From Promethearchaeota archaeon (GTDB lineage: Archaea > Asgardarchaeota > Lokiarchaeia > Sigyniarchaeales > SOKP01): a DNA stretch of 64,000 nt. Positions 69-21,626 of this stretch are shown here, one piece after another (position 1 is the first letter of the stretch; each line of letters starts with the position of its first letter). The notes under the pieces were generated by a model, which was given only the letters and a program-made list of their open reading frames with translations, was not told where the DNA came from and did not search any database. Both the position numbers and the translations under genes were made by a program. The stretch is from the NCBI GenBank assembly GCA_018238625.1, contig JABCSY010000008.1, positions 1 to 64,000 on the forward strand. Reading direction: 5' to 3'.

Positions 69-374
69 ATGGGTAAGACTATAACATCAAGGTTACCAGA
101 TAAAATGGTTGAAGAGATAGAAAGAATTGCAAAGTTAGAGAATCTTGATAGGTCTAGTGTCGTGAGAAGGCTATTAAATAAGGCAATTCCCGAATGGAAA
201 CTAGAGTATGCTTTAAAATTATATCAACATAAAGAAATTTCTTTAGGAAAAGCAGCGGAATTAAGTTCTCTATCTATATGGGAAATGTTAGAAAAATTGT
301 CACAAAATAGTATTCCTCTTAATTATGACCTTGAAGAATTAGAAAGTGATTTGGAAAAGGTTAAAGAATTATGA
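69..374 (+). CDS. UPF0175 family antitoxin-like protein (N-terminal ribbon-helix-helix, C-terminal HTH)
   Basis: RHH start (TITSRLPDKMVEEIERIAK..DRSSVVRRLL) and UPF0175 motif ISLGKAAELSSLSIWE; overlaps next ORF by ATGA. Confidence 0.85.
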   Translation: MGKTITSRLPDKMVEEIERIAKLENLDRSSVVRRLLNKAIPEWKLEYALKLYQHKEISLGKAAELSSLSIWEMLEKLSQNSIPLNYDLEELESDLEKVKEL

Positions 375-871
375 CACAATATTCAATCATTTCAAATGCA
401 ACTCCTTTAATTGCATTCATTAAAAAAAATGAACTATCCATATTAAAAACCCTTTTTAAAGAAATAATTATTCCTAAAGCTGTTTATGATGAGATTTTAA
501 ATACACCTAGAACTTTAAATAAAGAAGGAGAGATTTTAAAGAAAGAAATAAAAAACAAATGGATTCGTATTAGAGAAATTACTAAACTAAAATTTTCTGA
601 ATTAAATCTTGGAAGAGGAGAAACCGAAGCACTTAATTTATGTATAGAATCCAATAACCCATTATTACTTATTGATGAAAAAAAAGCAAGGAATATCGCT
701 AAATCTTTAAAGATAGATGTATTAGGAACTATAGGGATATTATTACTCGTTAATAAAAGAGGGCTAAAAAATGAACAAGAAATATTAGAAAATTTAGATC
801 TTTTAATTAAAAAGGGGTTTTATTTGTCAAGCGAAGTAATTTTAGGTTTTTTAAATAAAATTAGGAAATGA
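371..871 (+). CDS. DUF3368 PIN-domain protein (VapC-like partner of UPF0175)
   Basis: ISNATPLI, IPKAVYDE, LGRGETEAL, LLIDEKKAR, VLGTIGIL motifs; coupled to the UPF0175 gene. Confidence 0.9.
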   Translation: MTQYSIISNATPLIAFIKKNELSILKTLFKEIIIPKAVYDEILNTPRTLNKEGEILKKEIKNKWIRIREITKLKFSELNLGRGETEALNLCIESNNPLLLIDEKKARNIAKSLKIDVLGTIGILLLVNKRGLKNEQEILENLDLLIKKGFYLSSEVILGFLNKIRK

Positions 872-1005
872 GTTATAAAATAAATTATAATATGTCTATT
901 AATTTAGATAATTTTAGTATATCGATTGATTATATTTGCATAGGGAAATATATCCATTTTCTCTTATTTCTTGTTTAATGTTCTATATTTTTCTATAACG
1001 ATAGG

Positions 1006-1251
1006 TTATTTAACCAGAAATACCATCAGACTAAGAACAAAGTAGTAGAGTTGATAAGGACTGACCATTATTCTTTCGATTAAACCCATGTAATTATTTT
1101 TGGCAAAGATGCCTGAGATAATTACAAGAATTAATGAAACTATAGCTGAAATGAGTGAGAACGTAGCAAAAGCACTCCATACTGCTACTAACTGTAATCG
1201 AAACCACAGTGCCACCATCCCAGCAATTGTGAATATTCCTATTGCAACCAC
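1006..1251 (-). pseudogene. 5'-truncated DUF998-like membrane protein remnant
   Basis: Three hydrophobic helices ending GLIERIMVSPYQLYYF, resembling the DUF998 C-terminal G-x-x-(E/Q)-R motif; no room for an N-terminal half before the HxlR stop. Confidence 0.5.
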
Positions 1252-2801: not shown

Positions 2802-2957
2802 TTGAGCAAACGAGGGAGAATGGGAGGATCTAAAGCTGCAGGACCGGGTGGTAGTTGCAAGTGTCCTAAATGTGGCAAAACTATGAAACATCAAGTGGGC
2901 ATACCTTGCTACCAGCAAAATTGTCCAAAATGTGGTACTAAAATGGTTAGAAAATAA
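2802..2957 (+). CDS. 51-aa Cys-rich double zinc-ribbon/metal-binding microprotein (not in the ORF track)
   Basis: Manual translation MSKRGRMGGSKAAGPGGSCKCPKCGKTMKHQVGIPCYQQNCPKCGTKMVRK; GGTGA SD before TTG. Confidence 0.85.
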   Translation: MSKRGRMGGSKAAGPGGSCKCPKCGKTMKHQVGIPCYQQNCPKCGTKMVRK

Positions 2958-3122: not shown

Positions 3123-3374
3123 TATCATACGATTGATAATCGGTTTGTATTGGGTAATTTTTTATTTAATCTAATACTTGATTGAATAAAATTAAGTTAA
3201 TCTTTAAACAAAGATACTCAATTAAGTTAAAATTTAAATTTCAGTTAGGTTATTACTATGCTAATCAGCTTCCCGAACATGGGTCCGAACTGGGTGGCTT
3301 TTAAAACCTTATTCACGAGTCTTGATTTAGATGTGGTTGTTCCAGATCCAACTAATCGAGAAGCTATTAAGATT
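3123..3374 (+). repeat. Direct repeat copy 1 (upstream element + first 39 codons of a COG3581-like gene); copy 2 at 11625-11866
   Basis: 3123-3218 vs 11625-11720: 92/96 identical by manual alignment; coding part 36/39 aa identical. Confidence 0.95.
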
Positions 3375-3458
3375 CGAATAGAATCCTTCACTGAAATTAT
3401 TAAGCGCAAGAAGAGAATGCAAGCTGGAAAAAAGAAAGCGAAAAGAAGCGTGCAATAA
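3258..3458 (+). pseudogene. Deletion-scar chimera: N-terminus of a COG3581-like subunit joined to the C-terminus of a related reductase subunit
   Basis: Residues 1-39 match ORF 11750; then RIESFTEIIKRKK resembles the ends of ORF 3485 (RVESFVEMIRRKK) and ORF 6933 (RIEAF). Confidence 0.8.
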
Positions 3459-3484
3459 TCGTTTCGTACAATAATCCCAACCCT

Positions 3485-5911
3485 GTGTTTAACATGAGCG
3501 AAGAAAAACTAGCAATACATAAAAGAAAAGTAGAAGCGATCTCTGAAATGGTTAGAAATGCGTACGATAACGCGAAGCCGGGGGAATATTTCTCTCTAAA
3601 AAAGGCAAGCGTTTCCCACATGGCTCCACAGCCGGATAATCCGACCTATAGTGACAAGCCGATAGACGTGAGGTCACTTACAGACATTATTGAGATAAAC
3701 ACGGATACAAGGACGTGTATTGCAGAAGCAGGGATTACTTTTGTTAGGCTTGCAACAGAAACCTTAAAGTATGGGCTCGTACCGCAATGTGTTTCCGAGC
3801 TCAAGGGAATCACGATAGGCGGGGTAGTAGCAGGATGTTCAGTTGAATCCATGTCTTTCAAGTATGGGGGATTTTTCGATTCCTGTGAAGAAATAGAGAT
3901 TGTGACAGGAACAGGTGACATAATGTTATGCACGAAAAGTGATAACCATGAAATATTCGAGATGCTGCACGGGAGTTTCGGCACGATTGCAATCATCACG
4001 CTCCTGAAGTTCAAGCTCGTTCCAGCAAAAGAGTGCGTCCGCATCGATTACATCCGTTACGATACTTTTAGTGAATACATGGAAGCTATCAAGCAACACT
4101 ACGAAAAGCAGGATATTGAAATGATGGACGGGCTTATCTTCTCCGAGAATATGAACGTACTCTGCGTTGCCAGCTTCGTTGATGAGGAGGAAGCTCCTTA
4201 CAAGAGTGAATATTTCTACGATATTTATTACAAAAGTGCGATGAAAAAAAAGCGAGACTTCCTCTCCACCATAGATTATTTTTTCAGGTATGATGCAGAT
4301 TGCCACTGGTCGATACGGAATGTTGCTGGAGGAATTTTTGAGAATAAAGTAGTCCGGTGGTTAGTAGGGCCCTTTATACTTGGATCGACAAATATTCTTA
4401 AGATCAGCGAACGATTGCCATTTTTAACTAAGAAGGGGGGAGAACCGGACGTGATTATTGATGTCTTCATACCAATCACTCACGCGGAAGAGTTTTTCAA
4501 TTGGTACCTGGAGTTATTTGATTACTTCCCGGTTTGGATCGTCCCTTACCGCATGCAAAAAAACAAACTAGATGGGTACAAGTTCTACCCGTGGCTCAAT
4601 CAAGACATGATCGCTCCCATCGAGGATGAACTATTCATAGATTTTGCCATCTACGGGTTCGAGCAAAAAAGAAAGGGATTTAACTTCTATAAAGCGCTAG
4701 AAGAAAAGGTTCATGAGCTCAGGGGAATGAAAACCCTGATAACTCACAATTTCTACGAGGAAGACTTGTTCTGGAAGGTATATAACAAAAAATTTTACGA
4801 TAAAGTGAAAGAACGAACGGATCCCAAGAACCTATTTCGAAACTTGTACGAAAAGACGAATTATAAAAATCAGAAAAAGACTGAAAAGACGAAAAGACTG
4901 AAGGTAGGTATACCACGTTCCCTGTATTTCTACAAGTATTTTCCATTATGGGAAGGAATGCTTACAAGTCTTGGTTGCGAAGTTATTGTGAGTCCAGAAA
5001 CAAACAAAGAAATTCTTACCAACGGATCTAATCAATCTGCAACCGATTTATGCATTCCAGTCAAGATTCATTATGGTCACGTGAATTATTTATCGAGAAA
5101 TCACCCCGATCTAGATTTTATATTTGTTCCAAGACTCATTAGTAAAAGTAATGATCATTATTTTTGTCCGAAATTCCTGATCCTTCCAGATGTCACTCAA
5201 CACTCAGCAGTTTCTAATATTCCCGTTATTGAATGGATTTTTAATGCCAGGGAACATTCAATGATGAAATCAGCAATAGATTTTGGAAAAACATTAGATA
5301 AATCAAAAGAAGAATCAAAACTGGCGTATGAGAATGGATATAAAAAACTTGAAGAATTCCATGAGTTGATTGAGGATGGAATTCTTGTTCCTGATGCATT
5401 TTACAAAATGTATCCTTTTGAAAAATATCCAAATTATAAGTTTAAGAAAAGATTTCGACCTAAACTTAACAAAGATTATGAAAATTATCCACTTTCATTA
5501 ATGGTTCTTGGTCATCCATACAATACTTATGAATCAATTATTAATCATGGATTAATGGATATTCTCAAATCCAATTTTGTTGATGTTGTAACTGTTGAAA
5601 ATGCTCCAAAGGAAATCTTCTCAAGAAGAGTTGAAATTGATGATAATTTTTGCAATTTCTGGGATAATGAAGATGAATTGATGCAATTATCTGATTATGT
5701 TATACATAATGAAGAGATTGATGGGGGTATTTTCTTGATTTCTTTTGCATGTGGTCCTGATTCTTTAATTCAAGAATTGGTAATGCAGGATTTTGACATG
5801 AAAGATAAGCCTTATATTAATCTCACATTAGATGAACACACTGGAGAATCTCAAATAACTACAAGAGTAGAATCTTTTGTCGAAATGATAAGGAGGAAGA
5901 AATACAAATGA
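3485..5911 (+). CDS. Fusion: DHCR24/BfaA-like FAD-binding oxidoreductase (VAO/PCMH family) + DUF2229/COG3580 activase-partner domain
   Basis: N-part ITIGGVVAGCSVESMSFKYG, HGSFGT, YDKVKERTDPKNLFRNLYEK; C-part KVGIPRSLYFYKYFPLW, LCIPVKIHYGH, CPKF, SFACGPDS, LDEHTGE..TRVESF. Confidence 0.85.
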   Translation: MFNMSEEKLAIHKRKVEAISEMVRNAYDNAKPGEYFSLKKASVSHMAPQPDNPTYSDKPIDVRSLTDIIEINTDTRTCIAEAGITFVRLATETLKYGLVPQCVSELKGITIGGVVAGCSVESMSFKYGGFFDSCEEIEIVTGTGDIMLCTKSDNHEIFEMLHGSFGTIAIITLLKFKLVPAKECVRIDYIRYDTFSEYMEAIKQHYEKQDIEMMDGLIFSENMNVLCVASFVDEEEAPYKSEYFYDIYYKSAMKKKRDFLSTIDYFFRYDADCHWSIRNVAGGIFENKVVRWLVGPFILGSTNILKISERLPFLTKKGGEPDVIIDVFIPITHAEEFFNWYLELFDYFPVWIVPYRMQKNKLDGYKFYPWLNQDMIAPIEDELFIDFAIYGFEQKRKGFNFYKALEEKVHELRGMKTLITHNFYEEDLFWKVYNKKFYDKVKERTDPKNLFRNLYEKTNYKNQKKTEKTKRLKVGIPRSLYFYKYFPLWEGMLTSLGCEVIVSPETNKEILTNGSNQSATDLCIPVKIHYGHVNYLSRNHPDLDFIFVPRLISKSNDHYFCPKFLILPDVTQHSAVSNIPVIEWIFNAREHSMMKSAIDFGKTLDKSKEESKLAYENGYKKLEEFHELIEDGILVPDAFYKMYPFEKYPNYKFKKRFRPKLNKDYENYPLSLMVLGHPYNTYESIINHGLMDILKSNFVDVVTVENAPKEIFSRRVEIDDNFCNFWDNEDELMQLSDYVIHNEEIDGGIFLISFACGPDSLIQELVMQDFDMKDKPYINLTLDEHTGESQITTRVESFVEMIRRKKYK

Positions 5912-6939
5912 ATGAACCAGAATTTATCAAAAATATTCTTTCAGATGATGTGGATGACAAGTTATATCTAGGAATCGATGTCGGAAGTGTCTCCACGAAA
6001 TGTGCAATAATTAATGAGAGAAATGAATTATTGTATGCTACCTGGACCAGAAATGATGGTTCTCCCATTGTTTCTACACAAGAAAATCTAAAATACATGG
6101 AAGAAGTCCTTCCCGATAACATCGAAAAAAGTATTTGTGGTGTTGGGACAACAGGTTCTGCCAGGTATTTAATAAAAGCTCTTATCGGTGCAGATATAGC
6201 AAAACCTGAAATAATTGCTCATGCAATTGGAGCTTCAACTTATACCCCTGATGTGAGAACAATTCTTGAAATCGGGGGACAGGACAGCAAAGTTATATTG
6301 ATGAAAAATGGCATCGTAACAGATTTTAACATGAACAGTGTTTGTGCTGCCGGAACTGGTTCTTTTCTAGATCACCAAGCAGTTCGGATCAAGGTTCCAA
6401 TTGAAGAATTTGGGGATTATGCTCTTCGGGCAGAAGAGGAGGTTTCAATTGCAGGACGATGCACAGTTTTTGCCGAATCTGATATGATCAGTAAACAACA
6501 AGAAGGATATTCTAAAGAATCAATTATCAAGGGATTGTGTAAAGCTCTTGTTAGAAACTACTTGAATAATGTTTGCAAGGGAAAAAAAATGTATCCTCCC
6601 TTTGTATTCCAGGGAGGAGTTGCAGCAAATTCCGGAATAAAAAATGCTTTTGAAGAAGAATTGGGGTATGAAGTCATTGTTCATGAGAACTATTACGTGA
6701 TGGGAGCATTTGGTTCAGCCATTTTGGCAAAGGAACATGTAAATGGACAGATATCTTCTTTTCATGGCCTAAAAGTTAGTGAAATGAACTTGGCTCCAGG
6801 TTCATTTGTCTGTCCTGATTGTGCAAATAGATGTACAGTTAAATACCTTGTCAGGGAAGAAGATAAAAGTAGAGTAACTGGAAGAGAAAAGGATGATGCG
6901 ATATTTGCACGATGGAATAGTAGGTGCGGTAAATGGTAA
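5908..6939 (+). CDS. HgdC/BcrAD_BadFG-type ATP-dependent activase (COG1924)
   Basis: LGIDVGSVSTK, TTGSAR, EIGGQDSK, MNSVCAAGTGSFL, AGRCTVFAESD, FQGGVAAN; C-terminal CPDCANRC...RCGKW. Confidence 0.92.
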   Translation: MNEPEFIKNILSDDVDDKLYLGIDVGSVSTKCAIINERNELLYATWTRNDGSPIVSTQENLKYMEEVLPDNIEKSICGVGTTGSARYLIKALIGADIAKPEIIAHAIGASTYTPDVRTILEIGGQDSKVILMKNGIVTDFNMNSVCAAGTGSFLDHQAVRIKVPIEEFGDYALRAEEEVSIAGRCTVFAESDMISKQQEGYSKESIIKGLCKALVRNYLNNVCKGKKMYPPFVFQGGVAANSGIKNAFEEELGYEVIVHENYYVMGAFGSAILAKEHVNGQISSFHGLKVSEMNLAPGSFVCPDCANRCTVKYLVREEDKSRVTGREKDDAIFARWNSRCGKW

Positions 6940-8267
6940 ATGTTAGAGTTTCATTTTCACGAATGGGTTGGAGCTATATTTTTTTCAAAGGTTTATTCCA
7001 TGATCTTCCTGGTATTGAAGTTGTTGAACCCCCTCTAGTAAACACTGAAATCGTTAGTGAAGGAGTCAAAAATTCTCCTGAATTCGTTTGTTTTCCATTT
7101 AAAGTCATTCTTGGTGAAATGATAAACCTGTATCGTAATTATGATGTTAAAGATTTTGCGATGATTGCTGACTACGGCCCTTGTCGAGCAGGAATGTATG
7201 GTGTTGTCCAGAAAAGAATCCTGAAAAGCATGGGATTCAAGGATGTTAGAATGTTTTATCTACGTCAAGATGATTTCAGAAATCTTGAATGGCTAAGGGT
7301 ATTTCGTGATTTAGAAAAAAGAACAGGAAGAAAATTTGAGGACTATAAAGTTTTAAGAAACACACTCTTGTTCATGGTCAAAGCATACTATGTTGAAAGA
7401 ATAACCCATATTGAAGGACTTGTTAGATGTCGAGAAAAAAACAAAGCAATGACTACCAAAGTAGTTCATACTTTGATGAATTTACTTGATAACGAAAATA
7501 ATTTGATGAAATTATCTAATTTTGATAGAACGATAGATGAAAAATTTCGCAAGATTCCTATTGACAAGGAAATGGAACCTTTGAGGGTTTGTTATACTGG
7601 GGAAATCCAAGTCATGTTGGAGAAATGGGTTAATTATGATCTGATGGGAGAATTAGGCGTCATGGGTATCGAGGTTCACAAGCAGTATGATGTCTTTGAT
7701 TGGGTCATGTACAAACTTGACGCCAGCAAACGAAGAAGACGGCTTAAACATAGTGCAAGAAAGTATATTCCAATGGATATAGGAGGCGAGGCATTATGGA
7801 ACATGGGAAGTTATCTTGAGTCTCAAGAAAAAGGCTTCAACGGCTATGTACACATTTTTCCCTTCACCTGCATGCCTGAAATATCCCTCATGGGAATGTT
7901 AGAAGCTGAGAAAAACATGGACAAGTTTTACATGCCCCACATTCATTTTAGTCTTGATGGAAGTTCTGGTTTTGAAGGACTTAGAACAAGAATCGAAGCA
8001 TTTCATGATTTAATGGTTGGCAACAAGAAAAATAATCCCTTGTTTAGAGATGCCAAGTATGTGGTCCCGGATGAGATAAAAAATATATATTTTAAGCCGA
8101 AATCCAATTTTGAATATTTCGTGTCTAGTATTGAAACCCCAATGTCAAAGGTTTTAACAATGCTGAATCCATCAAAGAAATTAGATGTAGGATTCGCCGT
8201 TAAGAATGGACTCGAGTTTTTTTCAAGAAATTCGTTTTTTGGTATCGGATCTCTTTTTAACCTTTGA
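6933..8267 (+). CDS. COG3581/HGD-D-like Fe-S reductase-dehydratase subunit (PlsR-like)
   Basis: SPEFVCFPFK, GPCRAGMY, GEI, IGGEA, PFTCMPE, SGFEGLRTRIEAF. Confidence 0.85.
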   Translation: MVNVRVSFSRMGWSYIFFKGLFHDLPGIEVVEPPLVNTEIVSEGVKNSPEFVCFPFKVILGEMINLYRNYDVKDFAMIADYGPCRAGMYGVVQKRILKSMGFKDVRMFYLRQDDFRNLEWLRVFRDLEKRTGRKFEDYKVLRNTLLFMVKAYYVERITHIEGLVRCREKNKAMTTKVVHTLMNLLDNENNLMKLSNFDRTIDEKFRKIPIDKEMEPLRVCYTGEIQVMLEKWVNYDLMGELGVMGIEVHKQYDVFDWVMYKLDASKRRRRLKHSARKYIPMDIGGEALWNMGSYLESQEKGFNGYVHIFPFTCMPEISLMGMLEAEKNMDKFYMPHIHFSLDGSSGFEGLRTRIEAFHDLMVGNKKNNPLFRDAKYVVPDEIKNIYFKPKSNFEYFVSSIETPMSKVLTMLNPSKKLDVGFAVKNGLEFFSRNSFFGIGSLFNL

Positions 8268-8397
8268 GAAGCTATTTTGTTATGAAAGAAATATCAACAG
8301 ACTAAGAATGAACCTAAAATTAAAACCTTACTTTCAATTAACTTTATTTTTTAAGCAAATTATAATAAATAATAATATTGACTTTCTAGTTAGAATT

Positions 8398-9282
8398 ATG
8401 GATGAAATTGATTTTATCATTCTTAAAAAACTAATGGAAAACTCTCGCGTGACGTATAGAGAATTAGCAGAAATAATCGATATGTCCGTAAGCTCTACTC
8501 ATAAACGTATAAATAAACTTTTAGAAAATGGGGTTATCAAGGCATTTACTGCCCGACCAAGTGCAATAGCATTAAAATATCTATCTGTTATAGTTTTTGG
8601 TACTTCTAATGCAAAATCATTGGATGCTGTTAGTAAAGAGTTAGGGCAACATGAAAATATTAATAACGTTGCTATTGCAACCGGTAAAATGCTGTATATC
8701 TCTTCATATTTAAGAGATATAACAGGTCTTCGTGATTTTTCTGCTTATGTCTCAAAAACAGCTAATATAAGCGAACCTACTGTTGGAATTATGGATATAC
8801 CTTATATAACAACCCCAGAACCACTAACCACCATTGATTATAAAATACTAAAGTCTCTAAATAGAGATTCAAGGAAGCCTCTAACAGATATTGCAGATGA
8901 AGTAGGGCTTTCTGCTAAAACCGTTAGAAAACGATTAGATCGAATGATTGAGAATTACTTAGTAGAATTTACAATTGAAATGACCTTAAAATCTGAACAT
9001 AATTTGATTACAGGGTTCCATATATCTTTAAACGAAGGCACTAGCATAGACTCATCAATACAAAATATATATGAGAAATTTAAACAAAATGTTATTTATT
9101 GTATAAGCTATAGTAATATTCCTAACTTCTTTACAATGTATATATGGACAAAAGCGATTCAAAACTCCCAGAAAATTAACGAAGAACTACAATCTGAAGG
9201 ATTCAAAGATATTATTCCTATTATCTTCTTACATTCAGAATTTTACGATTGTTGGGTTGATCAATTACTTAGAACTAAATGA
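8398..9282 (+). CDS. Lrp/AsnC-family regulator with two HTH domains
   Basis: MDEIDFIILKKLMENSRVTYRELA and LTTIDYKILKSLNRDSRKPLTDIA; ATG 8398 preferred over 8206, which overlaps the previous gene. Confidence 0.88.
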   Translation: MDEIDFIILKKLMENSRVTYRELAEIIDMSVSSTHKRINKLLENGVIKAFTARPSAIALKYLSVIVFGTSNAKSLDAVSKELGQHENINNVAIATGKMLYISSYLRDITGLRDFSAYVSKTANISEPTVGIMDIPYITTPEPLTTIDYKILKSLNRDSRKPLTDIADEVGLSAKTVRKRLDRMIENYLVEFTIEMTLKSEHNLITGFHISLNEGTSIDSSIQNIYEKFKQNVIYCISYSNIPNFFTMYIWTKAIQNSQKINEELQSEGFKDIIPIIFLHSEFYDCWVDQLLRTK

Positions 9283-9566: not shown

Positions 9567-10382
9567 GTGATAAAAATTACACAAAATACCAAAACAACAA
9601 TATATTATTTCTCAGGCACAGGAAACTCATTACATATGGCCAAAACTCTTAAAGAAAAGCTAAATGATTGTGAACTTATACCGATTGCGGGTCTTATTAA
9701 TCAAGATTCCATAATCGCCACATCGGAAAAAGTTGGCTTTGTTTTTCCAGTGTACAATTGGGCTCTACCTAAAATCGTCGCTGATTTTATTGAGAAGATT
9801 GATTTAAGTAATATAAAATATATTTTTGCTCTTTGTACTAAAGGCGGTCCTGGCAGGCAGTATGTGATACCAATGATGAATAGTTTATTGAAACCAAAAA
9901 ACAAGCAACTTGATGCAGCATTCCTAATAAAAGTTTTTTCAGCTTTCATATTAGCCGGACACAACCCCATGCATTCAAAAGAAAAACAACTAAAAAGAAT
10001 AAAGGACGCTGAATTAAAATTAGATAAAATTGTTGAGATTATTCGTAATAATGAGAAAGGAAAGGGAAAGAAAGGTTCTATAATACCAATGAAAGGGACA
10101 TATAAATCTTTTATAGAGAAGGTAAATACTGAAGATGAAAACTACTATACAGATGAAAAGTGTAATGGTTGTGGAATTTGTCAAAAAATCTGTCCTGTCG
10201 ATAATATTAAACTCGTAAATGACAAACCTGAGTGGCAACATAAATGTCAACAGTGCTTATGTTGCCTCCATTATTGTCCCCAAAAAGCTATTCAATTTGG
10301 TGAATATACTCCAGGTAGGGAGAGATATAATCATCCACATATAAAAGTGAAGGAATTAATTAATCAAAAACAAGTAGTATAA
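9567..10382 (+). CDS. EFR1-family flavodoxin-ferredoxin fusion
   Basis: YFSGTGNS, GFVFPVY; CNGCGICQKICP and CQQCLCCLHYCP. Confidence 0.92.
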   Translation: MIKITQNTKTTIYYFSGTGNSLHMAKTLKEKLNDCELIPIAGLINQDSIIATSEKVGFVFPVYNWALPKIVADFIEKIDLSNIKYIFALCTKGGPGRQYVIPMMNSLLKPKNKQLDAAFLIKVFSAFILAGHNPMHSKEKQLKRIKDAELKLDKIVEIIRNNEKGKGKKGSIIPMKGTYKSFIEKVNTEDENYYTDEKCNGCGICQKICPVDNIKLVNDKPEWQHKCQQCLCCLHYCPQKAIQFGEYTPGRERYNHPHIKVKELINQKQVV

Positions 10383-11749: not shown

Positions 11750-12940
11750 ATGATAATTTCTTTTCCCAATATGGGCCCCAACTGGGTAGCATTTAAGACG
11801 CTATTTACAAGCCTTGGTCTAGATGTAGTTATTCCAGATCCAACGAATCGAGAAGCGATTAAGATTGGGGTAAAACACTCCCCCGAATTTGTGTGTTTCC
11901 CGTTTAAAGCGACTATTGGAGATTTCGTGAATGCTATAAAGAAGGGAGCAGATACGCTAGTCATGGCAATAGATTGTGGACCATGTAGATTTGGCTTTTA
12001 CGCGAGCGTCCAAGAACGTATTTTGAAGGATATGGGATATAAAAATATTACGGTTATCCCCCTCGACCAAGCAGATTTACTTGATTTTAAATGGGTCAAA
12101 ACTCTTCAAGAAGTTAGTGGTCGAAAGGACTTGTTTATGTATTCAAAGTTCGTTAAGGCTGTAATTCTTTTCCTAAAGAAAGCTAAGCTATTAAACGATA
12201 TTCAAACTGCCGAAGGTATCTTCCGAGCTTACGAGCGCAATCAGGGAGATACGACGGAATTGATTAGAAACTTATTGAATAAGCTTGATCAAGCTAATAC
12301 GCTCCCAGAATTGAGAAAATTCAAAAGCGTTATTAAGCAAGATTTTAGCAATTTAGATACAGATAAGACCCGAACGCCTCTACGGGTTGGTGTTTCGGGA
12401 GAGATTCACATTAATTTGGAACCATACGTAAATTTAGATATCCGTAGAAAGCTGGGTGAGATGAACATTGAAGTACACCAGAGCTTGAGCTTATACGATT
12501 GGGTTGTCCATAAATTCCATTTAAATTATCACAGAAAGTGGTTAGAACACCTTTCGCAACCATATTTACCGATGGACATTGGCGGAGAGGCGATGTGGGT
12601 GCTAGGTGAATATATAAATAAAGCTCAAGCGGGGTTTGATGGCTTCGTTCATCAATATCCGTTCCTCTGTATGCCAGAAGTGACGGCACGGACGATTTTA
12701 ACTAATAAACTTAAGGGAATTTACGATCTTCCCATCATTTACTTCTCTTTCGACGAGCAGAGCGGATTGGCGGGCTTCAGGACTAGGCTAGAAGCATTCT
12801 CTGACCTAATGTATGGTCGTAGGAATAAAGAAATTAAAAATAACGCCAAATTCGTAGCAAATGGTAATAAAAAGATTTATCCGCATTATGGCGGTTTATT
12901 TTATAATGAATGCGCTCAATTAATTCAAAATTCGGTTTAA
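11750..12940 (+). CDS. COG3581/HGD-D-like Fe-S reductase-dehydratase subunit (PlsR-like), paralog of 6933
   Basis: ISFPNMG, SPEFVCFPFK, GPCRFGFY, GEI, IGGEA, PFLCMPE, FDEQSGLAGFRTRLEAF. Confidence 0.87.
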   Translation: MIISFPNMGPNWVAFKTLFTSLGLDVVIPDPTNREAIKIGVKHSPEFVCFPFKATIGDFVNAIKKGADTLVMAIDCGPCRFGFYASVQERILKDMGYKNITVIPLDQADLLDFKWVKTLQEVSGRKDLFMYSKFVKAVILFLKKAKLLNDIQTAEGIFRAYERNQGDTTELIRNLLNKLDQANTLPELRKFKSVIKQDFSNLDTDKTRTPLRVGVSGEIHINLEPYVNLDIRRKLGEMNIEVHQSLSLYDWVVHKFHLNYHRKWLEHLSQPYLPMDIGGEAMWVLGEYINKAQAGFDGFVHQYPFLCMPEVTARTILTNKLKGIYDLPIIYFSFDEQSGLAGFRTRLEAFSDLMYGRRNKEIKNNAKFVANGNKKIYPHYGGLFYNECAQLIQNSV

Positions 12941-12958: not shown

Positions 12959-13984
12959 ATGGAAGAAGTTACTGAAAAAGTTACTAAAGTAGGAAAAAAA
13001 AAAGATGCTTTCCTTGGTATTGACATAGGAAGCGTGAGTTGCAAATTTGTTTTAATGGATACAGATGGAAATTTACTTACTAGCGTGTTTTTACGAAATA
13101 GAGGTTCTCCCATCGACTCAGCCAAGGCAGGAATGGCCGAGTTACGCGATAACATAGAAGAAAGCGAAAATTTAGGCGATTACGAGATTCGTTGCTGTGG
13201 TACCACAGGTTCGGCACGGTATCTAACAAAAGCAATCGTTGGTGCCGATCTCGCTAAAACCGAGATAATAGCCCACGCAGTTGCAGCGCAAACTATCTAT
13301 CCCGATGTAAAAACGATATTAGAAATTGGCGGTCAAGATTCGAAAATTATCATTCTACGGGACGGAATAATCGTAGATTTTGCGATGAATTCTGTATGCG
13401 CTGCTGGAACGGGTTCATTTCTCGATCACCAAGCAGCGAGGCTTGGGACAGTTATAGAAGATTTTGGCTCTTACGCTATAAAATCAAAAAATCCTGTAAG
13501 TATTGCGGGAAGATGTACTGTTTTCGCAGAGTCTGATATGATTCACAAGCAAAACGCGGGTTACTCTAAAGAGGATATTATTGCAGGTTTATGCGATTCA
13601 CTTGTGCGCAACTATATGAACAACGTAGGTAAGGGCAAAGACTTAGAAGAACCCATTGTATTCCAAGGTGGCGTTTCTTACAACGAAGGGATCATTGAAG
13701 CATTTGAAAGACATTTAGGTTGCAAAGTAATTGTTCCTGAATATAATGTCCTAATGGGGGCTTTAGGAATGGCAATTTTGGTTAGAGATTTCTATTTAGA
13801 GCACGAACATCAAACCGTATTTCGAGGACTCGAAGTATCAGATATTGAGTTCACGACATCAGCGTTTAACTGTGGAGATTGCCCGAATAACTGCGAAATA
13901 GTCCAAGTAAAGATGCCTCAAGAAGGAAATAAGATTATAGCACGCTGGGGCTCTCGTTGTGGTAAATGGGATCAAGTAGATTAA
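12959..13984 (+). CDS. HgdC/BcrAD_BadFG-type ATP-dependent activase (COG1924), paralog of 5908
   Basis: LGIDIGSVSCK, EIGGQDSK, CAAGTGSFL, RCTVFAESD, CGDCPNNC...RCGKW; AGGTGA SD. Confidence 0.92.
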   Translation: MEEVTEKVTKVGKKKDAFLGIDIGSVSCKFVLMDTDGNLLTSVFLRNRGSPIDSAKAGMAELRDNIEESENLGDYEIRCCGTTGSARYLTKAIVGADLAKTEIIAHAVAAQTIYPDVKTILEIGGQDSKIIILRDGIIVDFAMNSVCAAGTGSFLDHQAARLGTVIEDFGSYAIKSKNPVSIAGRCTVFAESDMIHKQNAGYSKEDIIAGLCDSLVRNYMNNVGKGKDLEEPIVFQGGVSYNEGIIEAFERHLGCKVIVPEYNVLMGALGMAILVRDFYLEHEHQTVFRGLEVSDIEFTTSAFNCGDCPNNCEIVQVKMPQEGNKIIARWGSRCGKWDQVD

Positions 13985-14146
13985 TTTCGAATTATATAAT
14001 CTAATCTTTTGATAACATACTTTTCAAACTATTATTGTATTTATAACCTTTAAATTTAATAAACGAATATTTGAATAAAAATAAGAAAAAACATATCTAG
14101 TAGAGTTATTAAAATATTGTCCAATTTTTAATAAAAGAGAAGTAAA

Positions 14147-14355: not shown

Positions 14356-15045
14356 ATGGTTGAAACATCTTCCGAGGAGACGGAAACGAAAGGAAAAGAT
14401 AAGGTGCTTAGTAAGAATCTTATGGAAGACATTTTTTACGCAGTTACCAAAGGTTTAGGAAACTTTGGTTTAACGGCATTCGCAGACTTACAAATTGAAG
14501 GGCGTGAAAACGTACCTATTATAGGAAGAGCGATTTTAACTACGATTAGCCACAACGCGTTAAGAGATATGGCGATTATAAGTCAAGTTACTGGACGAAG
14601 AGTTCACTTTATGGTCCATCATAAACTGATGAAGAATCAAATGTACGGGCCCGTTCTTAAGTCGTTAGGCATGTTTCGCAGTACCCTCGATAAGGACGAT
14701 ACCATACCTATAGATAAAGTGTTCCACTATCTTAACGAAGTTGGGGATCTTGTAGCCATGACGCCGGAATCAAAACTTACACCCGAAATTCAGGTGAAAG
14801 CAATGGCGGGAATCATTAAATTTGCAGTTGCTGGAAAAGCACCTATAATCCCCATAGCAATATACACGGAAAACGCGAAAATTTTAGGTATGTTTAAAAC
14901 ACAGGGGTTAAGAGTAAAAATCGGGACCCCACTTAAGGTAGAGAAACGATTGTCTCGACCAAAATATCGAGATGAGAGATACGAACTCGCTGAGGATATT
15001 TTAAGAATTATTGATTCCCTTAAACCAGAACCCGATATTGAATAA
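14356..15045 (+). CDS. PlsC/LPLAT-family lysophospholipid acyltransferase
   Basis: IEGRENVP, HX4D (HNALRD), VHFM, MTPES (variant of FPEG), APIIPIAI, VKIGTP. Confidence 0.85.
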   Translation: MVETSSEETETKGKDKVLSKNLMEDIFYAVTKGLGNFGLTAFADLQIEGRENVPIIGRAILTTISHNALRDMAIISQVTGRRVHFMVHHKLMKNQMYGPVLKSLGMFRSTLDKDDTIPIDKVFHYLNEVGDLVAMTPESKLTPEIQVKAMAGIIKFAVAGKAPIIPIAIYTENAKILGMFKTQGLRVKIGTPLKVEKRLSRPKYRDERYELAEDILRIIDSLKPEPDIE

Positions 15046-17689: not shown

Positions 17690-19102
17690 TTAAACTCTTG
17701 ATTGCTTTTCCGCGTGAAGTTCTTGAAGTTTTTCCTTTACTTTCTTTAGCTTTTCACCATCCAAGGGGTATTTATAGACGGCAATTAAACCAAGACACAT
17801 TGCTATTACTGGAAATATAAATATCAATACCCTTAACCCAAAAATAATTTCTTGAGTTATAGTTTCTGGTTCAAAAACAGTCCATCCAGCGCTCGTAAAC
17901 ACAGTACTAATAGCGAGAACGACGAAAACAGTAGATAATCTGAAGAAAAAAGCTTTTACTCCGTAATAACCAGCTTCTCTACGAGTCCCTGTAATCGTTT
18001 CGTCTTCATCGATAATATCGGCCAAAATTAGATCGCCAAGAAATATGGGGCCGGCTAACCCTATTCCTATTAGAAAAAACACAATTAAACCTTGTATTTT
18101 ATCGTTTATAAACATTAAAGGAATAAGTGTTAATATCCAAACGATTACAGATATTAACCAAGTTTTTCGAGGACCCATCTTTTTAACAACGGGTTTCCAC
18201 AGAACATTTATGAAAAACGCTGATGAAATAAACGTTATGGCTAATAATAATCCTAGAAAAATAGTTTCTCCTTCGCCAATATTTAAAGCGTATTTACCGT
18301 ATAGCGGTACTATCGTAGTTTGCATTCCTATTACAAACCAAATAGCTATTTCGGCGGGGATGTAGGTCATAAATGTTTTATTCTTAATACATATCTTTAC
18401 CGATTCAAGTAAGCTAGGTGCGTTTTTATATTCGTGTTGAAATGCAACTCTTTCCTTTGGACTAATTTTTAAAAAAAGTAAGCCAAAAATTACGATTATG
18501 ACCGCATTAATCACTCCAAAAATTTGAAATTCAGGCAAATAAGTTGGATTTGAAAAATCGGGGATGAAGATTGTTGGTAAAACAAAAGATATAAGTAATC
18601 CAATTATGTAAAATGCCATTTTAATAGCGTTAGCTTTCCTTCTTTCAGCATCAGTAATAAATAACTCTGGAAATAAAGCTATTAAATTTACATCGAACAT
18701 TGTAAAGAAAAACTCAAAAATGATAATAATAACGAGAAAATAAGCGAAATTAATAAGCTCGTTAGTGATCCCGAATGATAGCGGTGGATAAAACAACAAT
18801 ATAGATATTATGGCCATAGGAATAATCGAAATCATCATATAAGGGAAACGGCGCCCCCATTTTGTATGAGTTCGATCTGATAGCGCACCTAAAATGGGAT
18901 CATTGATGCTATTCCAAACCGACCAAATAATGAAACCAATTGTTATTAAATGAACATTGATTCCAATTACAGCAAAATAAAACGTGAACGTTAGAAGAGC
19001 AAACGTTTGATACGCCGCTGTATTAACTATTTGACTTGTGCTATAGGCTGCTGCTTTTTTAAATGAATACCGTGTTGTATCATATTTTTCTTTTTCATTC
19101 AT
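17690..19102 (-). CDS. MFS transporter, GPH (MelB-like) family
   Basis: WNSINDPILGALSDRTHTKWGRRFPY; LADIIDEDE..TGTRREAGYYG; about 12 TM. Confidence 0.92.
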   Translation of the reverse strand: MNEKEKYDTTRYSFKKAAAYSTSQIVNTAAYQTFALLTFTFYFAVIGINVHLITIGFIIWSVWNSINDPILGALSDRTHTKWGRRFPYMMISIIPMAIISILLFYPPLSFGITNELINFAYFLVIIIIFEFFFTMFDVNLIALFPELFITDAERRKANAIKMAFYIIGLLISFVLPTIFIPDFSNPTYLPEFQIFGVINAVIIVIFGLLFLKISPKERVAFQHEYKNAPSLLESVKICIKNKTFMTYIPAEIAIWFVIGMQTTIVPLYGKYALNIGEGETIFLGLLLAITFISSAFFINVLWKPVVKKMGPRKTWLISVIVWILTLIPLMFINDKIQGLIVFFLIGIGLAGPIFLGDLILADIIDEDETITGTRREAGYYGVKAFFFRLSTVFVVLAISTVFTSAGWTVFEPETITQEIIFGLRVLIFIFPVIAMCLGLIAVYKYPLDGEKLKKVKEKLQELHAEKQSRV

Positions 19103-20952: not shown

Positions 20953-21600
20953 GTGTCTAATGATAAATTTTATCAAGAAATAACTGAAGCAATCGTAAGT
21001 CTTGACAAAGAAAAAACTATTGAATTGGCTAATAAAGCAATTCAAGAAAAGATGAATCTTCTTGAAGTAATAGAGAAAGGGTTTGGCGCGGGGATCCGTA
21101 AAATAGGGGATTTATGGGACGAAGGAGAGTTTTTCCTTCCAGAACTAATGCTTGGAGGGACTATTATGCAAGAATCTATGCAACTTCTTTTTCCACACAT
21201 AGGAACAGAGAGAGATAGCATCTCAAATGGAAAAGTAGTAATTGCAACAATAGAAGGAGACATTCACTCAATAGGAAAAACGATTGTCGCTACAATGTTG
21301 AGTGCCAATGGTTTTGAAGTTTTTGATCTAGGCGCTGACATTCCAGCTGAAAAAATTATCGAAGTTGCTATTGAAAAGAATGCAGACATCATTGGAGTTT
21401 CTGCTCTATTGACTACAACTATGATCGGTCAAAAAAAGATAATAGAAATACTCGAAACTAAAGGCATCCGAGACAATTTCAAAGTGATACTTGGGGGCGC
21501 TCCAGTTTCTAACGCTTGGGTAGAAGAGTGCAAAGCAGATGGATTTGCTGGTAGCGCCGTAGAGGCTGTTAATTTAGTTAAGAACCTTTTAAAAATTTAA
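20953..21600 (+). CDS. Methyltransferase cognate corrinoid protein (MttC/MtgC-like)
   Basis: FLPELM cap domain, GDIHSIGK B12-binding motif, SALLTTTM, GGAPVS. Confidence 0.95.
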   Translation: MSNDKFYQEITEAIVSLDKEKTIELANKAIQEKMNLLEVIEKGFGAGIRKIGDLWDEGEFFLPELMLGGTIMQESMQLLFPHIGTERDSISNGKVVIATIEGDIHSIGKTIVATMLSANGFEVFDLGADIPAEKIIEVAIEKNADIIGVSALLTTTMIGQKKIIEILETKGIRDNFKVILGGAPVSNAWVEECKADGFAGSAVEAVNLVKNLLKI

Positions 21601-21626
21601 AGATCGCTTATTTGAGGTAAATTGCT

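What the first reader, a model, noticed from the sequence alone, without database searches (positions are those of the whole stretch)
3485..5911. In-frame fusion of a DHCR24/BfaA-like FAD reductase to a DUF2229 (PlsA-type) domain
Seen: one 808-aa ORF. The first ~460 aa carry DHCR24-like motifs (TIGGVVAGCSVESMSFKYG; YDKVK..DP.NLFRNLYEK) and the rest is a complete COG3580 subunit. Established: DHCR24 and actinobacterial BfaA/TmsA are VAO-family flavoenzymes that reduce C=C bonds in lipids, and alkyl-DHAP synthase is in the same superfamily. Inference: the fusion could couple ester-to-vinyl-ether reduction with saturation of the alkenyl bond, giving a saturated alkyl ether. I do not know of this architecture being described.
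Basis: partly seen in the sequence, partly recalled or inferred. Interest (0 to 1): 0.85.

Follow-up and report, generated by a model that had tools for sequence, protein, structure and literature searches.

The report
Flavoenzyme–PlsA-like fusion in Asgard archaea
An Asgard archaeon carries a real, conserved gene that welds a DHCR24-like flavin enzyme onto one subunit of an ATP-driven iron-sulfur enzyme of the kind bacteria use to turn ester lipids into ether lipids. The gene travels between lineages as part of a three-gene cassette.

Summary
The 808-aa ORF is real. Its true start is probably the ATG at 3495, giving 805 aa. It reads FAD_binding_4 domain, then a Lys/Thr-rich linker, then a complete DUF2229+HGD-D subunit.

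I found 25 distinct full-length in-frame copies. The linker varies only by in-frame indels, dN/dS is 0.09-0.52 in both halves, and contigs from four runs bridge the junction.

The architecture was found only in Promethearchaeota (Lokiarchaeia-type) MAGs, as three 90%-identity clusters among 5.8 billion proteins.

The gene is the first of a 4.8-kb cassette: fusion, BcrAD-type activase, second core subunit. Copies in at least seven genera are 89.5-98% identical in DNA and sit in different flanks. Cassette dS is 0.03-0.46, while neighbouring genes are saturated, so the cassette was exchanged recently.

The lipid reading has indirect support:
- The usual insertion site lies in a cluster with a tandem PlsC-type acyltransferase.
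- One separate bacterial clade keeps a stand-alone FAD homologue directly behind a ~1414-aa PlsA/Ger-like gene.

Against a necessary role:
- The FAD gene is rare among PlsA-like carriers (1 of 201 versus 143 of 201 genomes).
- It occurs in genomes with no PlsA-like match.
- Published Ger alone gives saturated ethers.

Verdict: observation confirmed, mechanism plausible but unproven.

The parts
3455..8288 (+). Three-gene cassette (fusion + activase + second core subunit) shared with other Promethearchaeota genomes
   Evidence: blastn identity is 89.5-98.0% over about 4.8 kb to 8 loci with different flanks. Homology begins at window 3452-3470 and ends at 8234-8288. Cassette dS is 0.03-0.46, against saturated or 3-7 times higher dS for the neighbours.
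3485..5911 (+). Fusion ORF, 808 aa from GTG 3485; likely start ATG 3495 (805 aa)
   Evidence: 25 distinct full-length in-frame copies.
3485..4849 (+). N-terminal flavoenzyme domain (residues 1 to about 455): FAD_binding_4 plus a cap domain with no Pfam model, DHCR24-like by automatic names
   Evidence: Pfam. AlphaFold2 model with pLDDT 93.3 and pTM 0.92. Best solved folds are cytokinin oxidases and DprE1, E about 1e-23 to 1e-18, TM 0.62-0.71. 40-63% identical to stand-alone proteins of about 445 aa. ESM Atlas names.
4850..4894 (+). Linker ...NYK(N/Q)(KKT/EKT)nKRLK..., variable in length
   Evidence: Alignment of 25 copies shows only in-frame indels. A 6-nt deletion at 4866 occurs in contigs of runs X15 and X17.
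4886..5908 (+). C-terminal DUF2229 + HGD-D core subunit ('DH', residues 468-808) with invariant Cys523, Cys561, Cys756
   Evidence: Pfam. Alignment of 24 family members: invariant C56, C94, C289 of the domain. A profile hits DCCP and HadC C-termini in the PDB. 44% identical to the stand-alone paralogue on G000:C10.
5908..6939 (+). BcrAD_BadFG ATPase (activase, 343 aa); its start overlaps the fusion's stop by 4 nt
   Evidence: Pfam E 2.7e-47. TIGR00241 acyl-CoA dehydratase activase, 188.2 bits against cut-off 125.4.
6933..8267 (+). Second core subunit (D', 444 aa); overlaps the activase gene by 7 nt
   Evidence: Weak DUF2229 N-terminal hit. AlphaFold2 pLDDT 80.9. All 19 Foldseek hits with E<=0.001 are DCCP, BzdNO/MbdON benzoyl-CoA reductase or HadBC chains. 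Invariant C53, C84, C313 in 19 homologues.
8268..8290 (+). Right border: stub of the 5' end of a further D'-type gene, cut at different lengths in different genomes
   Evidence: Border comparison of 14 loci.
3258..3458 (+). Chimeric remnant mini-ORF: the first ~39 codons of a 396-type D' gene joined to the last codons of a 358-type DH gene
   Evidence: Read. The same 3' DH stub and 5' D396 stubs lie upstream of the cassette in other loci.
11750..12940 (+). Paralogous D' subunit (396 aa) of the resident DH-D'-B system
   Evidence: Pfam DUF2229 N-terminus, E 2.4e-11. 39-42% identical to D444. The order DH-D'-B is conserved across families f1, f2, f7 and f29.
12959..13984 (+). Paralogous activase (341 aa)
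   Evidence: Pfam E 4.7e-48. TIGR00241 198.1 bits.
14356..15045 (+). PlsC-type acyltransferase (229 aa) next to the resident system
   Evidence: PF01553, E 1.4e-9.
9567..10382 (+). Flavodoxin_5 + 4Fe-4S ferredoxin-domain protein. A role as electron donor is inference only; it is not part of the cassette in other genomes.
   Evidence: Pfam. Absent next to the cassette in the other loci.

Best explanation
The ORF is a genuine fusion protein of a Promethearchaeota (Asgard) archaeon.

Its C-terminal half is one of the two iron-sulfur core subunits of a three-component, ATP-driven radical enzyme of the BCR/HAD superfamily. It belongs to the DUF2229 branch, the same branch as the bacterial plasmalogen synthase PlsA/PlsR and the glycerol ester reductase Ger. 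The two downstream, translationally overlapping genes supply the activase ATPase and the second core subunit.

The N-terminal half is a complete, autonomous flavoenzyme of the VAO/PCMH fold. It comes from a large family of stand-alone proteins that carry automatic Delta(24)-sterol reductase names.

Most likely (inferred, not shown) the core reduces and dehydrates the sn-1 acyl ester of a glycerolipid to an alk-1-enyl ether, as proposed for PlsA/PlsR. The tethered flavin domain then reduces that electron-rich C=C, by hydride from reduced FAD as in DHCR24 and BfaA. The product would be a saturated 1-O-alkyl ether.

The three genes form a 4.8-kb cassette that has recently moved between genera. 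It usually lands between the DH and D' genes of a resident paralogous system, which lies beside a tandem PlsC-type acyltransferase and a HAD phosphatase.
For: Shown:
- Domain content.
- VAO fold of the N-half and BCR/HAD fold of D444.
- The activase is above the curated cut-off.
- Three invariant Cys in DH and in D'.
- Overlapping start and stop codons.
- 25 distinct in-frame full-length copies with linker indels in multiples of three.
- dN/dS of 0.12-0.50 for the FAD half and 0.17-0.52 for the DH half in 10 pairwise comparisons.
- The junction is bridged by contigs of 4 of 4 runs laid, two of them metatranscriptome libraries.

Lipid link:
- In 9 of 9 loci fetched that hold the 358-type DH paralogue, a 553-583-aa ORF lies directly upstream, cut by the contig start in one of them. 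On G000:C10 this ORF is a tandem PF01553 acyltransferase, TIGR00530 150.6 bits against cut-off 102.95.
- In two genomes a canonical two-gene PlsA/PlsR-like pair (977 aa with 2x BcrAD + DUF2229, then 469 aa) lies directly before the fusion.

Independent association:
- Among 66 non-Promethearchaeota FAD loci, the only recurrent neighbour is a PlsA/Ger-like gene of about 1414 aa. It lies about 72 nt upstream on the same strand in 5 loci. 48 of the 66 loci have at least 4.4 kb of upstream sequence. Two more such loci appear among the metagenome contigs.
- In the tree these form one clade in which 7 of 7 members with upstream sequence show the adjacency. That clade is separated from the fusion clade by starred branches.

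Autonomy of the FAD enzyme: homologues stand alone in genomes with no match to the PlsA-like query (13 of 50). This argues against a mere electron-input module.

Established knowledge:
- PlsA/PlsR convert a diacyl ester to a vinyl ether by reduction and dehydration (passages citing Jackson 2021; PMC9702350).
- DHCR24 is an NADPH-dependent C=C reductase of the VAO/PCMH family (PMC9602106).
- BfaA, an FAD-binding oxidoreductase, is needed together with BfaB to make 10-methyl stearate (PMC5660069).
Against: - No activity data exist for any member of this FAD subfamily or for any split DH/D'/B system.
- The DH half is only 22-27% identical to the D domain of the PlsA-like proteins, and NCBIfam has no model that names it.
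- Ger of T. maritima and D. alkenivorans gives saturated 1-alkyl glycerol ethers in E. coli with no FAD partner (PMC13159169).
- In the phylum of the bacterial genome G353, a PlsA-like gene was found in 143 of 201 genomes and the FAD homologue in 1 of 201.
- Of 50 FAD-bearing genomes, only about 20 have a long PlsA-like match and 13 have none with this query.
- The closest unfused relative (62% identity, an Asgard-type contig) has no PlsA-like neighbour.
- The seven bacterial plsA-FAD loci are 82-90% identical to each other for the five compared, so they count as one evolutionary instance.
- Direct PlsA/PlsR adjacency in Promethearchaeota was seen in only 2 genomes.
- The DHCR24 label rests on automatic names only. 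The proteins I first took for eukaryotic DHCR24 turned out to be bacterial.
Confidence: 0.4

Rival explanations
1. The DH/D'/B core acts on glycerolipids, but the flavin domain reduces a different lipid double bond. Candidates are an unsaturated acyl or alkyl chain, or the terminal isopropylidene of an isoprenoid or sterol-like chain. The fusion would then reflect a shared pathway or shared membrane location, not consecutive steps on the same bond.
For: - The FAD family is widespread without any PlsA-like neighbour: 59 of 66 genome loci and 49 of 51 non-fused metagenome loci.
- It occurs in genomes with no PlsA-like match (13 of 50).
- It is common in Myxococcota, in small CPR/DPANN genomes and in Bdellovibrionota, by record titles.
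- Its automatic names are Delta(24)-sterol reductase.
- Sterol-making myxobacteria are reported to have ERG4/DHCR24-type homologues (PMC4919349, passages).
Against: - Two separate lineages link the FAD enzyme physically to DUF2229-type enzymes (fusion, and operon). A generic chain reductase would not be expected to do so.
- No sterol genes were looked for or seen in the window.
Confidence: 0.2
2. The system does not act on lipids. The split DH/D'/B enzymes are ATP-dependent reductases or dehydratases for some small molecule or CoA ester, like 2-hydroxyacyl-CoA dehydratases, benzoyl-CoA reductases or double-cubane proteins. The flavin domain carries out an adjacent redox step.
For: - The solved relatives by sequence and fold are DCCP, HadBC and BzdNO/MbdON.
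- No curated model names DH, D' or X469.
- Identity to PlsA-like D domains is low.
Against: - The DH gene lies next to a tandem PlsC-type acyltransferase, and in some loci a HAD phosphatase, across genera. A PlsC-like gene also lies upstream in 2 of the 4 loci of another family, f2, that were looked at (L024 and L206).
- PF09989 is the domain of PlsA/Ger (PMC13159169).
- The FAD partner also sits behind a full PlsA-type gene in bacteria.
Confidence: 0.15
3. The cassette works catabolically. The flavin domain oxidises an alkyl ether (or another lipid C-H next to O) to an enol ether or hemiacetal, as cytokinin dehydrogenase does for a C-N bond. The radical core then hydrates or rearranges it, letting a sediment heterotroph cleave ether lipids.
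For: - The best solved relatives of the FAD half are cytokinin dehydrogenases (E 4.5e-18 by sequence; E 2e-23 by fold).
- The cassette is accessory and laterally exchanged.
- An MFS transporter follows the closest unfused homologue, with a 4-nt overlap.
- An MFS_2 gene lies at window 17690-19102.
Against: - The nearest sequence relatives are labelled reductases, not oxidases.
- The acyltransferase context is biosynthetic or remodelling.
- No esterase or aldehyde-handling gene lies in the cassette.
Confidence: 0.12
4. The flavin domain is an electron-entry module. It takes reducing equivalents from NAD(P)H or another donor and passes them to the Fe-S clusters of the core, which needs two electrons per turnover.
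For: - Ester-to-vinyl-ether conversion is a net two-electron reduction.
- Fusion to the cluster-bearing subunit would shorten the electron path.
Against: - The family is mostly stand-alone and occurs in genomes with no match to the PlsA-like query (13 of 50).
- In the bacterial operon it is a separate protein.
- The full substrate (cap) domain is kept and confidently folded.
Confidence: 0.1
5. The fusion is an assembly or annotation artefact, or a decaying pseudogene.
For: Many contigs of other MAGs break inside the first 50-140 codons of the gene.
Against: - 25 distinct full-length in-frame copies.
- Purifying selection on both halves.
- The junction is bridged in 4 of 4 runs laid.
- The contig breaks are explained by the cassette being nearly identical in co-occurring genomes.
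Confidence: 0.01

Closest known systems
PlsA/PlsR anaerobic plasmalogen synthase (Clostridium perfringens) and single-gene PlsA of lactic acid bacteria
   Same: The same Pfam building blocks: BcrAD_BadFG activase, DUF2229 'reduction' domain, HGD-D and a second core domain. Both belong to the oxygen-sensitive BCR/HAD family (passages of PMC12838417, and PMC13159169). A canonical two-gene PlsA/PlsR-like pair sits directly upstream of the fusion in two Promethearchaeota genomes.
   Different: Here the parts are three separate genes, in the order DH, B, D', with one activase domain instead of two. DH is only 22-27% identical to PlsA-like D domains. A 460-aa flavoenzyme is fused to DH. No product is known.
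Ger, glycerol ester reductase (Thermotoga maritima Tmari_0479; Desulfatibacillum alkenivorans)
   Same: A DUF2229-type enzyme that yields saturated 1-O-alkyl glycerol ethers from esters. This is the end product proposed here. Ger homologues were reported in Lokiarchaeota (PMC13159169).
   Different: Ger is a single BBD... polypeptide and needs no flavin partner in E. coli. The cassette would split ether formation and saturation between a radical core and a flavin domain.
DHCR24 (Delta24-sterol reductase) and BfaA/TmsA (10-methylene-stearate reductase)
   Same: VAO/PCMH-fold flavoenzymes that reduce lipid C=C bonds instead of oxidising substrates (PMC9602106; PMC5660069). The N-half has FAD_binding_4 and no oxidase-type C-terminal Pfam domain. 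Its relatives carry automatic DHCR24 names.
   Different: No named DHCR24 or BfaA sequence could be compared. No BfaB-type methyltransferase recurs as a neighbour in 66 loci. There is no N-terminal membrane anchor: residues 2-29 are predicted as one long helix.
2-hydroxyacyl-CoA dehydratases (HgdAB/HadBC with activator), class I benzoyl-CoA reductases (BzdNO/MbdON) and double-cubane cluster proteins (DCCP)
   Same: The fold of D444 and the C-terminus of DH match these. The system has an ATP-dependent activase and Cys triads for Fe-S clusters.
   Different: Sequence similarity is marginal (TM 0.43-0.58, 10-14% identity). The substrates of these enzymes are CoA esters or small molecules. None has a fused flavoenzyme.

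Membership tests
BCR/HAD superfamily, ATP-driven Fe-S radical enzymes (activase + two core subunits) | BcrAD_BadFG/HgdC-type activase ATPase encoded alongside | tested here: met
   Window 5908-6939: PF01869, E 2.7e-47; TIGR00241 188.2 bits against cut-off 125.4.
BCR/HAD superfamily, ATP-driven Fe-S radical enzymes (activase + two core subunits) | Two homologous core subunits with the HGD-D fold | tested here: met
   DH: HGD-D hit, and a profile hits DCCP and HadC. D444: all 19 Foldseek hits with E<=0.001 are DCCP, BzdNO, MbdON or HadBC chains.
BCR/HAD superfamily, ATP-driven Fe-S radical enzymes (activase + two core subunits) | Conserved cysteines able to bind Fe-S clusters in the core subunits | tested here: met
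   Three invariant Cys in 24 DH homologues and in 19 D' homologues. Cluster binding itself was not tested.
PlsA/PlsR-Ger (DUF2229-type glycerolipid ester reductases) | DUF2229 (PF09989) reduction domain | tested here: met
   Residues 473-705, E 6.6e-45, nearly the full profile.
PlsA/PlsR-Ger (DUF2229-type glycerolipid ester reductases) | Two activase domains fused N-terminally to the D domain (BBD architecture, conserved in all alkyl-ether producers according to PMC13159169) | tested here: not met
   The fusion has no BcrAD domain. A single-domain activase is a separate gene. The BBD form exists as a different gene in some relatives but was not found in G000 with this query.
PlsA/PlsR-Ger (DUF2229-type glycerolipid ester reductases) | Close sequence relationship to a characterised PlsA or Ger | tested here: inconclusive
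   No named PlsA or Ger sequence was available. Against PlsA-like proteins of Promethearchaeota and bacteria, identity is 22-27% over the domain.
PlsA/PlsR-Ger (DUF2229-type glycerolipid ester reductases) | Makes alk-1-enyl or alkyl glycerol ethers from ester lipids under anoxic conditions | not testable with these tools
   Needs expression and lipid analysis.
VAO/PCMH flavoproteins | FAD_binding_4 domain and two-domain VAO fold | tested here: met
   PF01565, E 3.5e-13. Model pLDDT 93.3. Cytokinin oxidase and DprE1 matches, E 2e-23 to 1e-18.
DHCR24/BfaA-type C=C reductases within the VAO family | Orthology or close similarity to a characterised DHCR24 or BfaA | tested here: inconclusive
   Only automatic names support this: P0019, '24-dehydrocholesterol reductase', 56-59% identical, and the ESM Atlas clusters. 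Candidates taken for eukaryotic DHCR24 proved to be bacterial. No BfaB neighbour was seen.
DHCR24/BfaA-type C=C reductases within the VAO family | NAD(P)H-dependent reduction of a lipid C=C bond | not testable with these tools
   Needs an enzyme assay.

The most novel reading that the evidence does not exclude
The cassette is a self-contained, laterally mobile machine that converts fatty-acyl ester glycerolipids into saturated alkyl ethers in Asgard archaea. A radical Fe-S core makes the vinyl ether, and a tethered flavin domain acts as an anaerobic plasmalogen (alk-1-enyl ether) reductase, an enzyme activity not yet described. It would show that close archaeal relatives of eukaryotes handle bacterial-type lipids and swap the genes for doing so. 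It would also name the function of a large family of orphan 'DHCR24-like' prokaryotic flavoenzymes.
Probability: 0.2. Interest if true: 0.85.

Novelty: new variant of a known kind. Interest (0 to 1): 0.6.

Why it matters
How anaerobes obtain saturated alkyl ethers from esters is only partly understood, since the second reduction has no assigned catalyst. Whether Asgard archaea make or remodel fatty-acid-based lipids also bears on the 'lipid divide' problem in eukaryogenesis.

This fusion is a Rosetta-stone link between a DUF2229-type radical enzyme and an orphan flavin reductase family. It comes as a compact three-gene unit that can be tested directly in E. coli with published assays.

The cassette is also a clear case of recent gene exchange among Asgard lineages.

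Tried and rejected
- Complex prediction of the DH half against the FAD half as separate chains returned 'no answer' (score 0.00). It is no evidence either way.
- An alignment of the full-length protein with both sets of single-domain homologues (A5) misaligned the DH homologues. I therefore did not fold the whole fusion, and folded the FAD half and D444 separately.
- I first rooted the FAD tree on P0157, P0160, P0198 and P0223, taking them for eukaryotic DHCR24. One search shows their relatives are Chlamydiales and CPR 'FAD-binding oxidoreductases'. The root is therefore arbitrary, and only the unrooted splits are used.
- L146 seemed to carry a divergent FAD half (71%). It is a low-quality contig with frameshifts and N, 96.8% identical in DNA, and I dropped it as evidence.
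- No copy of the fusion was found in viral contigs: 7 pattern matches, none confirmed.
- Neighbours of the closest unfused homologues (L145, L054, L147, L151, L115) gave no lipid-specific lead. They are small GTPases, an MFS transporter, a glycosyltransferase, an alpha/beta hydrolase and an AAA protein.
- NCBIfam gave nothing above cut-off for the fusion, D444, D396, X469 or DH358.
- Alkyl-DHAP synthase as a model for the FAD half was rejected. It is a remote hit only (E 1e-4 to 2e-3).
- Literature searches found no description of the architecture: 'DUF2229' (4 papers hold the term, 3 listed); 'glycerol ester reductase' + 'FAD' (0 papers); 'DHCR24' + 'Asgard' (5 papers, none on this); 'plasmalogen' + 'Asgard' + 'ether lipid'.
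- Supplementary tables of PMC13159169 (domain architectures, Ger tree) could not be opened. They may list Asgard homologues.
- Jackson et al. 2021 was not read. It is cited only through passages of other papers.


Full report
OBSERVATION

Window 3485..5911 (+) is one open frame of 808 codons. Pfam finds three domains:
- FAD_binding_4 at residues 59-149;
- a nearly full-length DUF2229 at 473-705;
- the C-terminal part of HGD-D at 723-802.

They lie on invariant or nearly invariant columns of alignments of 40 and 23 family members. Seventeen left-border sequences from other loci all conserve the ATG at window 3495, while the bases around 3485 vary. The protein therefore most likely starts MSEEKL and has 805 residues.

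The next gene (5908-6939) overlaps the stop by 4 nt, and the third (6933-8267) overlaps the second by 7 nt.

IS THE FUSION REAL?

Yes, on four lines of evidence.

- In-frame copies. I collected 25 distinct ORFs of at least 780 codons from other genomes and metagenome contigs. In all of them the FAD part runs straight into the DH part. The linker (…NYK, then KKT/EKT repeats, then KRLKVGIPR…) differs only by indels in multiples of three.
- Loci that reach the junction. Of the 14 high-identity loci from the genome collection, 11 reach the junction and all 11 continue into DH. Of the 29 from the metagenome collection, 22 reach it and all 22 continue. Some loci are the same contig fetched twice.
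- Selection. Pairwise dN/dS against ten copies is 0.12-0.50 for the FAD half and 0.17-0.52 for the DH half.
- Independent runs. The stretch is held by runs of 12 studies, six of the runs being metatranscriptome libraries. In the four runs laid, contigs bridge 4850-4905. The two RNA-library contigs carry a 6-nt in-frame deletion at 4866. Contigs from RNA libraries do not prove transcription.

HOW WIDESPREAD IS THE ARCHITECTURE?

- In 5.8 billion proteins, only three 90%-identity clusters combine PF01565 with PF09989 and PF06050. They are 803-815 aa and 88-98% identical to the query. The same three appear in a second search, seeded with the DH half and restricted to longer proteins.
- In a full HMMER scan of 1.84 billion representatives, only five of the best 150 are long enough (775 aa or more) to hold both halves. 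All five are tandem FAD_binding_4 proteins. Cluster representatives can hide members, so this is good but not airtight evidence.
- Record titles of the high-identity loci read Promethearchaeota or Promethearchaeia archaeon.
- In a sample of 301 genomes of the phylum, at least 29 hold the gene or a fragment at 89% identity or more. Of these, 28 are in family f1 (69 genomes including G000), spread over six genera, and one is in f18. Fifteen matches of that call were not listed.

THE CASSETTE

The fusion, the activase and the 444-aa gene always travel together.

- DNA identity. It is 89.5-98.0% over about 4.8 kb and stops sharply at window ~3455 and ~8288. The flanks differ between genomes.
- Synonymous divergence. 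In the same loci the neighbouring genes are far more diverged. Against L026 (same genus), dS is 0.045-0.117 for the cassette genes, 1.49 for the acyltransferase, and too saturated to compute for D396 and B341. Against L130 it is 0.05-0.15 versus 0.33-0.41. Low synonymous divergence means recent exchange, not just constraint.
- Borders. On the left, different copies keep different lengths of the 3' end of a 358-type DH gene. On the right they keep different lengths of the 5' end of a further D'-type gene.
- Insertion site. The commonest site is between the DH and D' genes of a resident paralogous system, often leaving a duplicated 38-110-codon stub of D' upstream. Genomes of the sister family f2 without the cassette have DH directly followed by D'. 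The order DH-D'-B is conserved in families f1, f2, f7 and f29.
- The remnant in this window. The mini-ORF at 3258-3458 is such a remnant.
- Contig breaks. Many MAG contigs end 50-140 codons into the gene. This is expected if near-identical copies sit in co-occurring genomes.
- No copy was found in viral contigs.

WHAT THE PARTS ARE

- The 343-aa protein is an acyl-CoA-dehydratase-type activase, above the curated cut-off.
- DH aligns end to end with stand-alone 310-360-aa proteins. It keeps three invariant cysteines, P0001 residues 523, 561 and 756.
- D444 has only a weak Pfam hit. Its model (pLDDT 80.9) matches only DCCP, BzdNO/MbdON and HadBC chains among the 19 hits with E<=0.001. It too has three invariant cysteines.
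- The FAD half folds confidently (pLDDT 93.3, pTM 0.92) into the VAO/PCMH fold. Its best solved matches are cytokinin oxidases and DprE1.
- The sequence relatives of the FAD half are thousands of stand-alone proteins of about 445 aa. These are found in Myxococcota, Bdellovibrionota, Spirochaetota, CPR and DPANN lineages and other Asgard archaea, by record titles.
- In the tree, the nearest relatives of the FAD half are an Anaeramoeba protein that its sources name 24-dehydrocholesterol reductase (56-59% identical) and Asgard stand-alone proteins (62-63%).
- ESM Atlas clusters nearest by features are automatically named Delta(24)-sterol reductase.
- I could not compare a named DHCR24, BfaA, PlsA or Ger sequence. 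The DHCR24-like and PlsA-type labels are therefore family-level resemblances, not tested orthology.

EVIDENCE FOR A LIPID ROLE

- The 358-type DH paralogue is preceded by an ORF of about 555 aa in all 9 loci that hold it; in one the ORF is cut by the contig start. On G000:C10 this ORF is a tandem 1-acylglycerol-3-phosphate acyltransferase domain protein, TIGR00530 150.6 bits against cut-off 102.95. A HAD-family hydrolase precedes it.
- A further PF01553 acyltransferase follows the resident system in the window, at 14356-15045.
- In two genomes a canonical PlsA/PlsR-like pair lies directly before the fusion: 977 aa with two BcrAD domains and DUF2229, then 469 aa.
- G000 itself has no such gene with this query.

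THE INDEPENDENT ASSOCIATION IN BACTERIA

I clustered the neighbours of 66 non-Promethearchaeota FAD loci. The only family that recurs next to the FAD gene on the same strand is a ~1414-aa protein with two BcrAD domains and DUF2229.
- It lies about 72 nt upstream in 5 loci. Of the 66 loci, 48 have enough upstream sequence to show it.
- Two more such loci are among the metagenome contigs.
- These FAD proteins form one clade, 82-90% identical for the five compared. All 7 members with upstream sequence show the adjacency.
- That clade is separated by well-supported splits from the clade holding the fusion.

The flavoenzyme has thus become linked to a DUF2229-type enzyme at least twice: once by fusion and once by operon.

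EVIDENCE AGAINST A NECESSARY OR GENERAL ROLE

- Ger alone gives saturated 1-alkyl glycerol ethers in E. coli (PMC13159169, passages).
- In 201 genomes of the phylum of G353 (one of the operon carriers), a PlsA-like gene was found in 143 and the FAD homologue only in G353 itself.
- Of 50 FAD-bearing genomes, 37 have some match to the PlsA-like query. Only about 20 have a long one, and 13 have none, including several very small genomes.
- The closest unfused relative (62%) sits among small GTPase genes and is followed by an MFS transporter, with no PlsA-like gene on its 11-kb contig.

The family therefore has a function that does not depend on PlsA. This speaks against an electron-input role. 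It leaves open whether its substrate is a vinyl ether or another lipid alkene.

MECHANISM PROPOSED (INFERRED)

1. Reduced ferredoxin or flavodoxin charges the activase.
2. ATP hydrolysis drives a low-potential electron into the DH/D' clusters.
3. The sn-1 ester carbonyl of a glycerolipid is reduced and dehydrated to an alk-1-enyl ether, as proposed for PlsA/PlsR (passages).
4. The tethered flavin domain, reduced by NAD(P)H, delivers a hydride to the protonated enol ether. By recall, this is the same logic as DHCR24 on the Delta24 bond and BfaA on a 10-methylene group. The product is a 1-O-alkyl ether.

I put this at 0.4. The rivals and their tests are listed separately.

NOVELTY

The components belong to known families. 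What is new:
- the fused architecture;
- the split three-gene form with a flavin partner;
- its mobility among Asgard lineages.

None of these was found in print.

I rate it a new variant of a known kind, interest 0.6.

Noticed in passing
P0019, tree: The closest relative of the fusion's FAD half outside the fusion clade is a 563-aa protein of the anaerobic protist Anaeramoeba flamelloides. Its sources label it 24-dehydrocholesterol reductase. It is 56-59% identical and sister to the fusion clade with SH-aLRT 92, and it lies on a 16-Mb scaffold. This suggests transfer between Asgard-type archaea and an anaerobic eukaryote, which is not expected to need a sterol Delta24 reductase.
   Followed up: partly
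window 3258-3458: A 66-codon mini-ORF that joins the N-terminus of a 396-type D' gene to the C-terminal codons of a 358-type DH gene. It is a scar of recombination at the cassette's insertion site.
   Followed up: partly
G000:C10 (L038) versus window 1002-1251, 2435-2548 and 14017-14135: The 6-kb contig C10 carries HAD phosphatase, tandem PlsC and DH358. Short stretches at its two ends and one inner stretch are 89-97% identical to parts of the window. It is probably an alternative haplotype, or the missing upstream part of this locus. G000 has 7.6% contamination.
   Followed up: partly
window 69-871; L025 7968-8776: A UPF0175/RHH + DUF3368 pair resembling a toxin-antitoxin module. In genome G125 it lies directly after the cassette, but in this window it lies 2.6 kb before it.
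   Followed up: no
window 20953-23978: A corrinoid-protein (B12-binding) gene, a homocysteine S-methyltransferase-family gene and an MTTB-family methyltransferase gene lie in a row. This is a methylated-amine or betaine-type methyl-transfer module.
   Followed up: no
window 17690-19102 (-) and L145 9888-11168: An MFS_2 transporter lies near the resident lipid cluster. An MFS gene overlaps by 4 nt the end of the closest unfused FAD homologue in another Asgard-type contig. This is a possible lipid or lysolipid transport link.
   Followed up: no
P0134, P0146, P0152, P0155, P0168: Proteins of about 900 aa that are tandem duplications of the same FAD_binding_4 family.
   Followed up: partly
window 2803-2957: A small ORF with two CPKCG motifs (zinc-ribbon-like), between the FMN reductase gene and the cassette.
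   Followed up: no
window 8206-9282: The listed ORF overlaps the end of D444. The double AsnC-type HTH protein probably starts near 8410 (MDEIDF...), judging from the sequence after the cassette border.
   Followed up: no
L028 10975-15335; L034 6019-10404: Some Promethearchaeota genomes carry a canonical two-gene PlsA/PlsR-like pair (977-985 aa + 469-474 aa) inserted at the same DH|D' site. G326, a bacterial MAG, holds a 54%-identical homologue.
   Followed up: partly
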